A DNA stretch of 32,444 bases from a virus (Duplodnaviria > Heunggongvirae > Uroviricota > Caudoviricetes): IMG/VR virus record IMGVR_UViG_2859821903_000002, positions 1-32,444 of that record; one strand, given 5' to 3'. This document shows positions 3,001 to 6,000 of this stretch, in pieces. Position 1 is the first letter of the stretch. Every line of letters starts with the position of its first letter. Made by a program: the position numbers.

Positions 3001-6000
3001 GGCATGAAGTTGTCGAAGGAGAAATGCGACCAGGTTAACGCCATTGAACGTGATAAGGCGCTGGCATGGGTGGAGAAAAACATCAAAGTGCCGCTGACCG
3101 AACCCCAGAAATCGGGGATCGCGTCATTCTGTCCGTACAACATTGGCTCCGGTAAGTGTTTCAGCTCAACGTTTTACCGGAAACTGAACGCCGGAGACCG
3201 GAAAGGTGCATGTGCTGAAATTCGTCGCTGGATATATGACGGCGGCAGGGACTGTCGGAACCGCTCAAATAACTGTTACGGGCAGGTATCGCGGCGTGAC
3301 CAAGAGAGCGCGCTGGCGTGCTGGGGTATCGACAGGTAGCAGAATATTTTGCTGAAAAATGACGCTTGCTCACGCGGGCGGATAACACGAAGTCCTGTGA
3401 ACTGGCAAAACCTAAGTGAATAAAAGTAAAAACCCCGTTTGTTGGCAGCAAGCGGGGTTTTGTGTTTTCTGACCTTGAGTAAGGCAAGGGAGAAATTATG
3501 GTGAGGGAGGTGCTTTCCCTGTGAGGAAGTATAAAAGATTCTTTCTGAGGTTGTCCATTATGAAAGGCATTGAAGTGGAGACGCCAGCCAGTCTGGATTT
3601 AACAAGAGCGGCAGCTTTTGCCATTCGTATTGTGGCAATTGCTGTTCTGGTCTGGGCAATCCGTTGGTGGTGATATGAACCGTGTTCTGTGCGTGGTCAT
3701 CATTGCCCTGCTGGTGGCCTGTGGTGCGCTTAGTCTGGGGCTGAATCATTACCGTGTTCACGCCATCATCTACAAAGAGCAGCGCGATAAAAAAGCCAGT
3801 GAGCTGGAGCTGGCGAACGCGACAATTACTGATATGCAGATACGCCAGCGTGATGTCGCTGCACTTGATGCCAGATACTCGAGGGAATTAGCCGATGCGA
3901 GAGCTGAAAATGAAACTCTGCGTGCTGATGTTGCCGCTGGTCGTAAGCGCCTGCGGATCAACGCCACCTGCTCCGGTACCGTGCGTGAAGCCACCGGCAC
4001 CTCCGGCGTGGATAATGCAACCGGCCCCCGACTGGCAGACACCGCTGAACGGGATTATTTCATCCTCAGAGAACGGTTGATGACAATGCAGAAGCAGCTG
4101 GAAGGGGCACAGGACTATATCCGCACTCAGTGCCTGAACTAAGTTTTGCTGATGCGCCGTATCGTCGCTGTATTCCCTCATTAACAGAGACCGCAGCCCG
4201 ACAGGGAGACTCCTCTGCGCGAGTGTGCGGGGATAATCAAAAACGATACACACCGGGGTTTACCACGTTAACGGAGCGCGGCGTTGTCCCCTCATAGTCG
4301 CCAGTCCGGTGCGATGGTGGAAGAAACAGGACGATGTGTTACCTCGCAAGCCCTGTTATGTCATGTGTCTGATTTGTGATTTAAGTCGGATAATTGTCGT
4401 TGCCATTAAGCAGAGGATTGATGACCGACAGGGCGGCATTGTTAGAATAAGACTTATTTTTATCTGTGCGGGGAATGAAAATGAAAAGAAATCTTCCGTT
4501 AATTATTTTGTTGTCTTCTCTGGTTATGGGCTGTACGCAACATAAAACAGATATGCCCCGACAGTTGGTTAAGGCATTACCACAATATCCGGCCTATGCA
4601 GCGGCAAATTATATAAAGGGACGGGTTGATGTGAGGTTTGATATTGGTGCTGATGGTACTGTCACCCGAATTGAGTTTATTCGTTCAGAGCCGCACCATC
4701 TGTTTGATGAGCAGGTTGTAAAGGCGATGGCAAAATGGCGATTTGAGAAGGACAGGCCGTGTAAAGGCGTGAAGAAAACGTTTATCTTTAGTCCTTCTGC
4801 ACCCTGATTATTTCATCAGAAATTAATTATCACTCTGTTGTTATTCTGTACATCCCGGCAGGGTAAGTCTTGTTCCGTCGGATATGAAGATGAAATATTG
4901 TTGGAGGACAGTGGGTACCTGCTCCTGTAACCGAACGTTCATTTCTCGTTATTTGTCATGCTGGCCGGGCAACAGATGCGTTGCATCTGTTGCCAGCCTT
5001 CTCCTGCAGGCTTCAATAACCCACGCTGAAAAGTTACCGGACCCTTTATGCTCAAGGGCGATGTTGATCTGTTCAATCATGTGATTGGGGAAACGGATAT
5101 TGCGGGTTGTGGTTCTGCGGGTACGGTTTTTCGATGACATATTTATTTCCTTTACTGATTGCCATATGACGGGGATTTTACATGGCTGAGCTTCGTACAC
5201 TCCAGAGCAGAATCAAAACACTGAATACCCGACGGGTGAATATTCTGAAGGGTGAACAGCGTCGTGTCAGTGGCAGTGCACGTGTTTCCCTCAAGCGTCA
5301 TATCTGGCTCAGGGACGCCGGGCCGTGCCGTCTCTGTGGTCGTGTGGTTGACCTCTGTGACAGTGAACTCGATCACCGAATTGCACTTCAGTTCGGTGGT
5401 GGTAATGAGGAGACGAATCTCTGGACGCTCTGTACCGAATGCCATCGACAAAAGTCTGCTCGTGAAGCGGCGAGTGATATGCCGGACCCGACGCTGCCGG
5501 AGGTGTCCGGAGGTAGTGGCAGAGAGGACGACATCATCGGACTGTAACCCGACCCCGGGGGGTATCATCCGGCGTAAAAAACGATCGCTTTGGACACCGC
5601 GCCCCCTCTCACGCAGAGAAAAAATTCCCGTTTCAGGCCAGTTAACATGTTAACTGGCTGTCCGGGCATTTTTGCGGTTTTTATCTTTATTATTCAGTTT
5701 GTTGTGCGAAAAAAATGTTAACTGGCTTTTTCAGAAAATGTTAACCAGGCAGCAGTTAACATTTGCGGCATGAGACGCCGGGAAAAATGGGCTGAACCAT
5801 ACCCGGCTGAGTGCGTTCTGGACCCGGGAGGAGGCTGTGCTGACAACGCAAAAACGAAAATTTGCGCTGGCGCTCATGTCCGGGAAAAACAAAACAGCGT
5901 CAGCCATTGCCGCCGGTTATTCGGCGAAGACCGCCAGGGTTAAAGGCTCGCAGCTGGCAAAAGATCCGGAGGTGCTCGCGTTTATAGCCCGTAAACAGTG

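What the first reader, a model, noticed from the sequence alone, without database searches (positions are those of the whole stretch)
4466..4807. Prophage moron encoding a lipoprotein with a TonB C-terminal-like domain at the bor-equivalent locus
Between Rz/Rz1 and the packaging genes, where lambda carries bor, there is a low-GC gene with its own AT-rich upstream region. It encodes a lipobox signal peptide followed by about 70 residues that align position-by-position with the TonB C-terminal domain (YP..A...G.V.V.FD...DG.V..I.....P...F...V..AM..WR.E). A secreted lipidated TonB-CTD mimic could interfere with TonB-dependent receptors, for example excluding TonB-dependent phages or colicins. This is analogous in logic, not in sequence, to Cor and Llp exclusion lipoproteins.
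Basis: partly seen in the sequence, partly recalled or inferred. Interest (0 to 1): 0.6.

Follow-up and report, generated by a model that had tools for sequence, protein, structure and literature searches.

The report
Prophage lipoprotein made of TonB's tip
A roughly 600-bp add-on gene cassette in an E. coli lambdoid prophage encodes a small outer-membrane lipoprotein that is essentially a free-standing copy of the receptor-docking tip of TonB; about 30% of complete E. coli genomes carry it, it has apparently never been studied, and it most plausibly jams TonB-dependent import of phages, bacteriocins and siderophores.

Summary
It has a lipobox signal peptide (Cys18, Thr at +2), a 7-residue tether, and a TonB C-terminal domain.

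- **Domain:** Pfam TonB_C E=1e-14. The alignment to E. coli TonB residues 153-231 is gapless. The AF2 model superposes on TonB taken from the BtuB and FhuA complexes at 1.0-1.2 Å.
- **Moron:** the gene sits in a low-GC cassette of about 600 bp that is cleanly absent from an otherwise collinear phage.
- **Selection:** dN/dS is 0.11-0.17.
- **Spread:** 1616 of 5426 complete E. coli genomes carry it, including EDL933 and ST131. Phage 21 and prophages of Salmonella and Klebsiella carry it too, always between the lysis and packaging genes.
- **Not strictly the bor slot:** it coexists with bor/iss in phage 21 and in ST131.
- **Chromosomal relatives:** Serratia, Raoultella and Pantoea have non-phage copies.
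- **Annotation:** databases say only "TonB family protein". I found no functional study.

The decoy mechanism (occupying TonB boxes without delivering energy) is plausible, because engineered periplasmic TonB fragments do exactly this. It remains untested (about 0.4). The identity of the gene is certain; its function is inferred. Interest is moderate to high.

The parts
4334..4928 (+). Moron cassette (about 600 bp) that is present here and absent from the otherwise collinear phage vB_EcoS-569R3
   Evidence: In blastn against L100, left homology ends at window 4333 and right homology resumes at 4929. GC is 0.41-0.45 against 0.52-0.58 in the flanks.
4325..4333 (+). Left junction copy of an imperfect 9-bp direct repeat (AACAGGACG)
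   Evidence: The gene-less phage has a single AACCGAACG at the joined site.
4929..4937 (+). Right junction copy of the imperfect 9-bp direct repeat (AACCGAACG)
4421..4448 (+). Candidate sigma-70 promoter with an extended -10 (ATGACC, 16-nt spacer, TGT-TAGAAT)
   Evidence: Found by the consensus scan, 9/12 matches with TG. The extended -10 is kept in the diverged phage 21 allele as TGTCAGAAT. This is a consensus match only; function is not shown.
4470..4474 (+). Shine-Dalgarno GGGGA, 6 nt before ATG 4481
   Evidence: Read directly from the sequence. Phage 21 has AGGA at the same spacing.
4481..4807 (+). Coding sequence of the 108-aa TonB-CTD lipoprotein, stop codon included
   Evidence: dN/dS is 0.11-0.17 against diverged alleles.
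4481..4534 (+). Signal peptide with lipobox LVMG-C (Cys18 codon at 4532-4534); +2 Thr implies outer-membrane sorting
   Evidence: Lipobox rule match. A lipobox is present in 13 of the 16 short homologues tested (12 by the rule, 1 by eye), and +2 is never Asp.
4535..4555 (+). Short tether of 7 residues (TQHKTDM) between the lipidated Cys and the domain
   Evidence: AF2 gives low confidence before about residue 25. Tethers are 7-14 residues in most short family members.
4556..4792 (+). TonB C-terminal domain (residues 26-104, equivalent to E. coli TonB 153-231), including the YP motif and strand beta3 (residues 94-103)
   Evidence: Gapless phmmer alignment to 1u07/2gsk/2grx. AF2 secondary structure. 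Foldseek.

Best explanation
**What it is (shown).** A self-contained moron cassette in a lambdoid E. coli prophage encodes a lipoprotein made of three parts: a lipobox signal peptide, a 7-residue tether, and a stand-alone TonB C-terminal domain equivalent to TonB residues 153-233. This is exactly the part of TonB that is ordered in the BtuB-TonB and FhuA-TonB complexes. The protein lacks TonB's membrane anchor and its proline-rich spacer, so it cannot be coupled to ExbB/ExbD.

**How it most likely works (inferred).**
1. [quoted passage not shown]
2. That places the domain next to the periplasmic face of TonB-dependent transporters.
3. Its exposed beta3 edge pairs with their TonB boxes, and with the TonB boxes of incoming group-B colicins, as TonB does.
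4. No force can be applied, so the transporter is occupied but not energised.
5. The net effect is reduced TonB-dependent import. The cell gains resistance to TonB-dependent phages (T1, phi80 types), colicins and microcins, and pays with reduced siderophore and B12 uptake.

**When it would be made.** It is co-directional with the late operon in every intact phage examined, so it should be made late in lytic growth. A conserved extended -10 element suggests some expression in lysogens as well.

**Confidence.** Identity and anatomy: above 0.95. TonB-box binding as the mechanism: about 0.4. The specific benefit (phage versus bacteriocin exclusion) is open.
For: **Domain identity.**
- Pfam TonB_C E=9.7e-15; TIGR01352 55 bits.
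- Gapless alignment to TonB 153-231.
- AF2 pLDDT 97-98 over the domain.
- The best fold matches include TonB as bound to BtuB (2gsk_B, rmsd 1.0 Å, TMt 0.92) and to FhuA (2grx_C, rmsd 1.2 Å, TMt 0.92).

**Docking-relevant residues are kept.**
- The YP motif is invariant or nearly so across the family (Y36 invariant, P37 in at least 90%); Q35 (= TonB Q162) is kept in this allele only.
- The aromatic core is kept: F53, F75, W86, F88, F103 (= TonB F180, F202, W213, Y215, F230).
- A full-length beta3 strand (residues 94-103) is predicted.
- Position 33 (= TonB Q160) is Leu. Q160L in TonB restores activity with mutant TonB boxes (PMC11658791), so this residue is compatible with TonB-box binding.

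**Localisation.** 13 of the 16 short homologues tested carry a lipobox, none has Asp at +2, and most tethers are 7-14 residues.

**The gene is functional.** dN/dS is 0.11 at dS 1.6 against the phage 21 allele, and 0.095 over the domain alone.

**Mechanistic precedents.**
- Periplasmically exported TonB 33-239, 103-239 and 122-239 inhibit TonB-dependent transport (bioRxiv 10.1101/2020.01.05.895219).
- T5 Llp is a periplasmic outer-membrane lipoprotein that jams the TonB-dependent transporter FhuA (PMC9586334).

**Moron behaviour and spread.**
- Clean presence/absence junctions.
- Found in different phage backbones: an HNH plus Terminase_2 module here, a lambda-type NohD/cos module in phage 21 and ST131, and other modules in Salmonella and Klebsiella prophages.
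- Present in 1616 of 5426 complete E. coli genomes.
Against: - No binding or phenotype data exist. Nothing was found in ten literature searches.
- Homologues sit in ordinary chromosomal, non-phage contexts in Serratia grimesii, Raoultella and Pantoea. The family may therefore have a housekeeping role unrelated to exclusion.
- A strong TonB inhibitor should be costly, yet the gene is common in ExPEC ST131 and EHEC, which depend on siderophores.
- TonB R158, Q160 and R166, which contact transporters in the crystal complexes (my recollection of those papers), are not conserved in the family: K/T, L/Y and Y respectively.
- The last seven TonB residues are missing.
- The 7-residue tether may be too short for the docked orientation. 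This was not testable here.
- The promoter is only a consensus match, and the number of such matches does not exceed shuffled controls.
- No terminator was found.
- From memory, the shortest engineered TonB fragments (about 77-86 residues) were reported to be poor inhibitors because they form intertwined dimers. I could not retrieve that paper.
Confidence: 0.4

Rival explanations
1. TonB poisoning rather than receptor occupancy. The lipoprotein pairs with the C-terminal domain of the cell's own TonB when TonB reaches the outer membrane. It would do this through the strand-exchange or dimer interfaces seen in TonB-CTD crystals. Because TonB is far scarcer than its transporters, few copies would suffice.
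For: The fold is nearly identical to TonB-CTD structures that crystallise as dimers (1u07, 1ihr). The core aromatic residues are conserved. The Postle-lab preprint notes that inhibition by periplasmic TonB domains need not act only through transporters. Stoichiometry favours this route (my own knowledge of TonB and transporter copy numbers).
Against: The protein lacks TonB residues 233-239. In 1u07 these form the strand at the dimer interface (my recollection). AF2 gives a confident monomeric TonB-like fold. No direct data exist.
Confidence: 0.12
2. An envelope or host-interaction lipoprotein that does not bind TonB boxes. The TonB-CTD fold would be reused as a scaffold, for example for peptidoglycan or outer-membrane protein contacts. 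It would alter envelope properties such as serum or stress resistance, as the neighbouring morons bor/iss do.
For: It sits next to bor in phage 21 and next to iss in ST131. Chromosomal single-gene homologues in Serratia, Raoultella and Pantoea suggest a cell-physiological role. Family-specific motifs (SEPxHLFD, KWRFExxKP) differ from TonB proper. Transporter-contacting residues R158, Q160 and R166 are not conserved.
Against: What is conserved is precisely the TonB core plus the YP motif and the beta3 edge. No other domain or motif is detectable. Peptidoglycan binding by the TonB CTD is itself debated (my own knowledge).
Confidence: 0.2
3. A lysis accessory or spanin-like protein, as implied by the PHROG family label 'Rz-like spanin'.
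For: PHROG 1267 matches at E=1.4e-42 and is labelled 'Rz-like spanin'. The gene always lies just after the lysis genes and on the same strand. It is an outer-membrane lipoprotein, as Rz1 is.
Against: A complete Rz/Rz1 pair is already present immediately upstream (Pfam Phage_lysis E=2e-49 and Rz1 E=2e-21). The protein is a globular TonB CTD, not a proline-rich o-spanin. Collinear phages do without it. Chromosomal homologues have no lysis genes nearby. The PHROG label is most simply an annotation carried over from position.
Confidence: 0.05
4. A non-functional leftover fragment of a captured tonB gene, as the old EDL933 note suggests ('Partial tonB-like membrane protein encoded within prophage CP-933N').
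For: It covers only the C-terminal third of TonB. The old annotation wording appears. Several C-terminally frameshifted alleles circulate (P0012, P0013, P0016, P0018).
Against: dN/dS is 0.11-0.17 at high synonymous divergence. A purpose-built lipobox signal peptide is conserved from E. coli to Salmonella, Klebsiella, Serratia and Pantoea. In 1612 of the 1616 genomes that have a match, the match covers at least 80% of the gene.
Confidence: 0.03

Closest known systems
TonB (E. coli P02929) C-terminal domain, residues about 150-239
   Same: Same Pfam domain and same fold. Identity is 36-41% with no gaps over TonB 153-231. The YP motif, the aromatic core and strand beta3 are kept.
   Different: No N-terminal transmembrane anchor, no proline-rich spacer and no last seven residues. 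A lipobox signal peptide replaces them. It scores 59-74 bits against NCBIfam TonB equivalog cut-offs of 265-448. It therefore cannot transduce energy.
Engineered periplasmic TonB fragments (signal peptide fused to TonB 33-239, 103-239 or 122-239)
   Same: An exported, unenergised TonB C-terminal domain. Those constructs inhibit TonB-dependent transport (bioRxiv 10.1101/2020.01.05.895219). This is the mechanism proposed here.
   Different: Those are artificial, soluble and overexpressed. This one is natural, shorter (from TonB 153), lipid-anchored to the outer membrane and under natural expression signals.
Phage T5 Llp (superinfection-exclusion lipoprotein)
   Same: A small phage-encoded lipoprotein on the periplasmic side of the outer membrane that inactivates a TonB-dependent transporter (PMC9586334).
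   Different: No sequence relationship: only TonB_C and TonB_2 were hit in Pfam at E up to 10. Llp binds the FhuA plug and is receptor-specific. A TonB-CTD decoy would target the generic TonB box, so it would be broad-spectrum.
Cor of phi80 / N15 / HK022
   Same: A lambdoid prophage moron product that blocks the FhuA-dependent phages T1 and phi80 (reviewed in PMC11436027).
   Different: Unrelated sequence. Cor lies in the tail-gene region (my own knowledge). Cor is FhuA-specific.
Lambda Bor / Iss
   Same: A roughly 100-aa outer-membrane lipoprotein moron located between the lysis genes and cos.
   Different: Unrelated sequence. Bor is transcribed on the opposite strand. It coexists with the TonB-CTD gene in phage 21 and ST131, so the two are separate cassettes in adjacent slots.
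Specialised TonB paralogues (FusB, HasB, Vibrio TonB2)
   Same: Diverged TonB C-terminal domains with altered partner specificity; they appear among the fold hits.
   Different: These are full-length, membrane-anchored energy transducers.

Membership tests
TonB_C domain (Pfam PF03544 / TIGR01352) | Profile score above the curated cut-off | tested here: met
   PF03544 scores 55.2 bits against 24.6. TIGR01352 scores 55 bits against 27.1.
TonB_C domain (Pfam PF03544 / TIGR01352) | Three-stranded sheet plus two helices that superpose on solved TonB C-terminal domains | tested here: met
   AF2 pLDDT is 97-98 over the domain. Foldseek gives 1u07 at E=6e-8, 2gsk_B at rmsd 1.0 Å and 2grx_C at rmsd 1.2 Å.
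TonB_C domain (Pfam PF03544 / TIGR01352) | Conserved YP motif and aromatic core | tested here: met
   Y36, P37, F53, F75, W86, F88 and F103 align with TonB Y163, P164, F180, F202, W213, Y215 and F230.
TonB energy transducer proper (NCBIfam PRK10819 equivalogs) | N-terminal transmembrane anchor that couples to ExbB/ExbD | tested here: not met
   The N-terminus is a cleavable lipobox signal peptide. Equivalog scores are 59-74 bits against cut-offs of 265-448, and the match covers only the C-terminal part of the profile.
TonB energy transducer proper (NCBIfam PRK10819 equivalogs) | Proline-rich periplasm-spanning spacer | tested here: not met
   Only 7 residues (TQHKTDM) separate Cys18 from the domain.
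Bacterial outer-membrane lipoprotein | Signal peptide ending in a lipobox with an invariant Cys | tested here: met
   LVMG-C18 passes the PROSITE-like rule. 13 of the 16 short homologues tested carry a lipobox: 12 by the rule and P0039 (LSAC) by eye. The other three lack one.
Bacterial outer-membrane lipoprotein | No Lol-avoidance signal (Asp at +2) | tested here: met
   The +2 residue is T, S or A in every lipobox-bearing member. The sorting rule itself is established knowledge for E. coli.
Bacterial outer-membrane lipoprotein | Actual lipidation and outer-membrane localisation | not testable with these tools
   Needs globomycin or palmitate labelling and membrane fractionation.
Phage moron | Present or absent between otherwise collinear phage genomes | tested here: met
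   Phage vB_EcoS-569R3 joins window 4333 directly to 4929.
Phage moron | Composition differs from the flanking phage DNA | tested here: met
   GC is 0.41-0.45 against 0.52-0.58.
Phage moron | Own promoter and terminator | tested here: inconclusive
   An extended -10 promoter-like site lies at 4421-4448 and is conserved in phage 21. The number of such matches does not exceed shuffled controls. No terminator was found.
Phage moron | Expression from the repressed prophage | not testable with these tools
   Needs RNA or protein data from lysogens.
Superinfection-exclusion lipoproteins acting on TonB-dependent transporters (Llp, Cor) | Homology to Llp or Cor | tested here: not met
   Pfam at E up to 10 gives only TonB_C and TonB_2. 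PHROGs give only phrog_1267, phrog_34172 and weak hits. PADLOC gives nothing significant.
Superinfection-exclusion lipoproteins acting on TonB-dependent transporters (Llp, Cor) | Blocks infection through a TonB-dependent transporter | not testable with these tools
   Needs plating and adsorption assays.
Spanins (Rz1-type o-spanin or unimolecular spanin) | Proline-rich lipoprotein gene embedded in or paired with an i-spanin gene, and required for outer-membrane disruption | tested here: not met
   A separate, complete Rz/Rz1 pair lies upstream. This protein is a globular TonB C-terminal domain. Only the PHROG label suggests a spanin.

The most novel reading that the evidence does not exclude
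About 30% of E. coli strains, plus many Salmonella and Klebsiella prophages, carry a natural dominant-negative TonB. It would be an outer-membrane-tethered TonB tip that plugs the universal TonB box. It would therefore give broad, receptor-independent protection against every TonB-dependent phage, group-B colicin and siderophore-microcin. It could also shift susceptibility to siderophore-antibiotic conjugates such as cefiderocol. That would be a new logic of prophage-conferred exclusion: mimic the energiser instead of masking one receptor.
Probability: 0.3. Interest if true: 0.75.

Novelty: new variant of a known kind. Interest (0 to 1): 0.55.

Why it matters
- **A different exclusion logic.** Known prophage lipoproteins that protect against phages (Llp, Cor) each disable one receptor. 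A lipid-anchored TonB tip would act on the motif shared by all TonB-dependent transporters and by group-B colicins. One 108-aa protein could then alter sensitivity to whole classes of phages, bacteriocins and Trojan-horse antibiotics, while trading off iron and B12 uptake.
- **Where it is found.** The gene is in classical phage 21, Stx1 phages, EDL933 and ST131, where it lies next to iss. Any phenotype would therefore bear on phage-therapy host range, gut competition and possibly virulence.
- **Easy to test.** Standard E. coli assays suffice, and an engineered precedent predicts the outcome.
- **If the decoy idea fails.** The family, which also has chromosomal members in Serratia, Pantoea and Raoultella, would still be an uncharacterised use of the TonB fold.

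Tried and rejected
- **Fur regulation.** The best Fur-box match near the promoter is 13/19 at 4446-4464. Matches this good occur several times in the window, and the site is deleted in the phage 21 allele. Not supported.
- **Intrinsic terminator after the gene.** None in the consensus scan. The 3' flank folds no better than shuffles, z=0.07.
- **Structured RNA or known sRNA in the conserved block 4152-4333, or elsewhere in 4080-5000.** No Rfam hit at E up to 1. Fold z-scores are -0.29 and 0.06. The prophage sRNA svsR from the literature lies at cI, not here.
- **Known defence system.** PADLOC gave nothing significant.
- **Spanin reading.** Rejected; see the rival explanations.
- **Other viral proteins with this fold.** No BFVD match at E up to 0.001.
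- **Prior functional work.** Ten searches found none: TonB-like/prophage/lipoprotein; TonB/moron/lambdoid; the WP accession; 'TonB family protein' with prophage; 'tonB-like membrane protein'; PF03544 with phage; phage 21 with bor and TonB; Lys8385Vzw; and two on TonB fragments. The phage 21 genome announcement does not discuss the gene. The paper describing phage Lys8385Vzw never mentions TonB.
- **Failed call.** The first attempt to scan genome contigs with the 13-member alignment failed for lack of a conserved stretch. It was repeated with a tighter alignment.
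Full report

Yes. The six-frame ORF list contains an ORF at 4466..4807 on the + strand, 113 aa from a GTG. The sequence shows two in-frame ATGs at 4475 and 4481. Only ATG 4481 has a usable Shine-Dalgarno: GGGGA at 4470-4474, 6 nt upstream. NCBI's pipeline calls the same 108-aa product in near-identical E. coli chromosomes, as WP_000828072.1, 'TonB family protein'. The diverged phage 21 allele starts at the equivalent ATG. I therefore take 4481-4807 as the gene.

The N-terminus, MKRNLPLIILLSSLVMG-C, satisfies a PROSITE-like lipobox rule. 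Cys is at position 18 and Thr is at +2.

The rest of the protein is a TonB C-terminal domain by every test:
- Pfam PF03544 gives E=9.7e-15, 55.2 bits against a gathering score of 24.6.
- TIGR01352 gives 55 bits against 27.1, and the enterobacterial TonB equivalog models match only with their C-terminal 80 positions.
- phmmer against all PDB chains gives a gapless alignment of residues 26-104 to E. coli TonB 153-231, E about 1e-15.
- An AF2 model built on a 20-sequence alignment has pLDDT 97-98 over residues 30-105. It shows the TonB topology: strands 47-55, 61-70 and 94-103, and helices 38-42 and 76-83.
- Foldseek against the PDB returns only TonB C-terminal domains at the top. These include TonB as seen bound to BtuB (2gsk_B, rmsd 1.0 Å, TM 0.92) and to FhuA (2grx_C, rmsd 1.2 Å, TM 0.92).

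GC content drops to 0.41-0.45 across 4300-4900, against 0.52-0.58 on both sides.

**2. Surroundings and the moron cassette**

Upstream lie a 5'-truncated phage lysozyme gene, Rz (3618-4142, Pfam Phage_lysis E=2e-49) and the embedded Rz1 (3895-4080, E=2e-21). Downstream lie a DUF3950/YlcI gene on the minus strand, an HNH endonuclease and the small terminase subunit.

Phage vB_EcoS-569R3 is collinear on both sides but lacks the gene. Its sequence joins window 4333 directly to 4929. An imperfect 9-bp direct repeat (AACAGGACG / AACCGAACG) flanks the insert in the window and is present once in the gene-less phage. The unit is therefore a cassette of about 600 bp: about 150 bp of AT-rich leader, the coding sequence, and about 120 bp of trailer.

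In the leader, a sigma-70-like site with an extended -10 (ATGACC, 16-nt spacer, TGT-TAGAAT; 4421-4448) is the only plus-strand promoter match. The TGn-AGAAT element is retained in phage 21 even though the surrounding leader has diverged. Promoter-like matches also lie about 15-30 nt upstream of the Salmonella and Klebsiella orthologues. All of these are consensus matches, and their number does not exceed shuffled controls. No terminator was found.

In phage 21 the order is Rz/Rz1, then bor on the minus strand, then this gene, then cos. In an ST131 chromosome it is rzpD, then iss on the minus strand, then this gene, then nohD. Bor/iss and the TonB-CTD gene are thus two independent morons in adjacent slots. 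The window simply lacks bor.

**3. Distribution and selection**

- The gene is in 1616 of 5426 complete E. coli genomes. In 414 of them it is at least 95% identical to this allele. In about 1200 it is the roughly 73%-identical phage 21-type allele. Carriers include EDL933, ST131 and the type strain.
- The exact protein is recorded on at least 1000 contigs.
- Among sequenced phages it occurs in Stx1a-converting phages, JLK-2012, Lys8385Vzw, phage 21, ev017/Perceval, three PhiR phages, and Klebsiella phage ST13-OXA48phi12.4 at 41% identity.
- A Salmonella orthologue (44% identity) lies between a DUF2514 lysis-region gene and HNH/terminase. The Klebsiella one lies between the lysis genes and HNH/terminase.
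- In every intact phage checked, the gene is on the late-gene strand.
- In 80 IMG/VR contigs the dominant order is Rz, gene, YlcI (minus strand), HNH, TerS. A minority lack this HNH/TerS packaging module downstream despite enough flanking sequence.
- Nei-Gojobori dN/dS is 0.11 against the phage 21 allele (dS 1.6; 0.095 over the domain alone) and 0.17 against a 92%-identical allele. The protein is under purifying selection.

An exhaustive HMMER search found 4726 TonB_C proteins. Within these is a distinct set of lipoproteins of about 105-135 aa that align end to end with the query. They share family-specific motifs, SEPxHLFD and KWRFExxKPxxG. Thirteen of the 16 short homologues I checked carry a lipobox, none has Asp at +2, and most tethers are 7-14 residues.

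A scan of species-representative genomes found members in Raoultella, Klebsiella, Serratia, Erwinia, Pseudescherichia and Pantoea. Several of these are not in prophages. In Serratia grimesii the gene lies between a ycgN-like gene and dsbB. In Raoultella it is near a LacI-family regulator and a DUF1440 gene. In Pantoea it is near an amylase gene and yedD. Only one of these loci (Serratia montpellierensis) has a phage lysozyme next to it.

The phage genes therefore belong to a wider enterobacterial family of stand-alone TonB-CTD lipoproteins. The phages probably captured the gene from that family, not from tonB directly.

**4. How it most likely works**

Shown:
- The protein has an export and lipidation signal with outer-membrane sorting character.
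- It has a very short tether.
- Its TonB C-terminal domain corresponds almost exactly to the part of TonB that is ordered in the transporter complexes.
- It has no membrane anchor and no proline-rich spacer, so it cannot be energised by ExbB/ExbD.
- The YP motif, the aromatic core and a full beta3 strand are retained.

From the literature:
[quoted passage not shown] TonB Q160L restores activity with mutant TonB boxes in FhuA and colicin M (PMC11658791). The window protein has Leu at the Q160 position.
- Exported TonB periplasmic fragments (33-239, 103-239, 122-239) inhibit TonB-dependent transport (bioRxiv 10.1101/2020.01.05.895219).
- T5 Llp shows that a small phage lipoprotein on the periplasmic face of the outer membrane can jam a TonB-dependent transporter (PMC9586334).

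Inferred: the lipoprotein sits under the outer membrane and occupies the TonB boxes of ligand-loaded transporters and of incoming group-B colicins, without pulling on them. This would lower TonB-dependent import. The benefit would be resistance to TonB-dependent phages and bacteriocins. The cost would be reduced siderophore and B12 uptake. I put this mechanism at about 0.4.

Reasons for caution:
- Chromosomal, non-phage homologues exist.
- A strong inhibitor would be costly for ExPEC and EHEC.
- TonB R158, Q160 and R166 are not conserved in the family.
- The last seven TonB residues are missing.
- The tether is short.
- There are no expression data and no binding data.

Rivals are TonB poisoning by heterodimerisation (0.12), an envelope or host-interaction role unrelated to TonB boxes (0.2), a lysis accessory as PHROG 1267's label implies (0.05), and a dead gene fragment (0.03). 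The lysis-accessory reading is contradicted by the complete Rz/Rz1 pair and by the gene-less collinear phages. The dead-fragment reading is contradicted by dN/dS and the conserved lipobox.

**5. Comparison with what is known, and novelty**

By domain it is a member of TonB_C. It is not a TonB: the anchor and spacer tests fail. By logic it resembles Llp and Cor, but it is unrelated to them in sequence, and it would target a universal motif rather than one receptor. Its closest functional analogue is an engineered construct, periplasmic TonB fragments.

The gene has been annotated since the EDL933 genome ('Partial tonB-like membrane protein encoded within prophage CP-933N'). In the curated phage 21 record it is 'TonB C-terminal domain protein'. 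Ten full-text searches found no functional study. The phage 21 announcement does not discuss the gene. The BFVD viral structure library has no significant match to this fold.

I rate it a new variant of a known kind: prophage lipoproteins that act on TonB-dependent transporters. The sequence feature itself is already catalogued.

**6. Verdict**

Interest is 0.55. A specialist would not be astonished. However, the gene is very common, it sits in classical and clinically important phages and strains, and the hypothesis can be tested in a few weeks with standard assays.

Noticed in passing
window 1-2723: The left end of the window holds two IS1 transposase ORFs (1-378, cut by the window edge, and 651-1154). 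It also holds an IS3-family element (1510-2723) with its ALIL frameshift pseudoknot at 1791-1907 (Rfam 120 bits). The phage lysozyme ORF that follows (2977-3339) starts at profile position 27. The holin, Q and late-promoter region of this prophage therefore seems to have been replaced by insertion sequences, and in this copy the cassette could only be expressed from its own promoter.
   Followed up: partly
window 6394-27741: The large terminase, major capsid, tape-measure and J genes each switch reading frame one to four times relative to intact homologues (tblastn). Either the prophage is decaying or the assembly has indel errors. The 327-nt TonB-CTD ORF is intact, but that is not significant at this error density.
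   Followed up: partly
window 4152-4333: A non-coding block of about 180 bp lies directly after Rz. It is 95-98% conserved in many Stx and other lambdoid phages, with or without the cassette. Large parts of it are still conserved in phage 21, although the adjacent coding sequence there has dS 1.6. Indels rule out a conserved ORF. There is no Rfam hit and no folding signal on either strand. Its role is unexplained; it may be a recombination linker or a regulatory site.
   Followed up: partly
PHROG phrog_1267 (matches window 4481-4807): This PHROG family matches the protein end to end (E=1.4e-42), but it is labelled 'Rz-like spanin' in the lysis category. Given the TonB_C domain and the separate Rz/Rz1 pair upstream, this looks like an annotation error that will propagate into phage annotations.
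   Followed up: partly
L091 5995-6321; L085 5998-6333; L095 6007-6366: Orthologous small TonB-CTD lipoproteins sit as single genes in ordinary chromosomal neighbourhoods: Serratia grimesii between a ycgN-like gene and dsbB, Raoultella near a LacI-family regulator, and Pantoea near amylase and yedD. This is an uncharacterised cellular family from which the phage morons probably derive.
   Followed up: partly
L085 6738-7301 and L003 1277-1903: A DUF1440 (YagU-like) membrane protein gene lies immediately downstream of the Raoultella chromosomal orthologue. A DUF1440 gene is also carried by the Klebsiella phage that has the TonB-CTD gene, about 3 kb away from it. This may be coincidence or a shared origin.
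   Followed up: no
proteins P0012, P0013, P0016, P0018, P0019, P0021 (phage 21-type allele): Several circulating variants of the phage 21-type allele are frameshifted just after KWRFEK or QGV, which removes strand beta3. One such cluster has 130 member sequences. They may be decaying copies in cryptic prophages or recurrent indels at one spot.
   Followed up: no
window 4446-4464: A weak Fur-box-like match (13/19, AATAAGACTTATTTTTATC) overlaps the predicted -10/+1 region. Matches this good occur elsewhere in the window, and the site is deleted in phage 21, so it is probably not meaningful.
   Followed up: yes
L102 2227-3327 (E. coli ST131 chromosome): In ST131 the serum-survival gene iss and the TonB-CTD lipoprotein gene are neighbours, about 480 bp apart on opposite strands. 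Studies that use iss as a virulence marker are therefore also tracking this gene.
   Followed up: no
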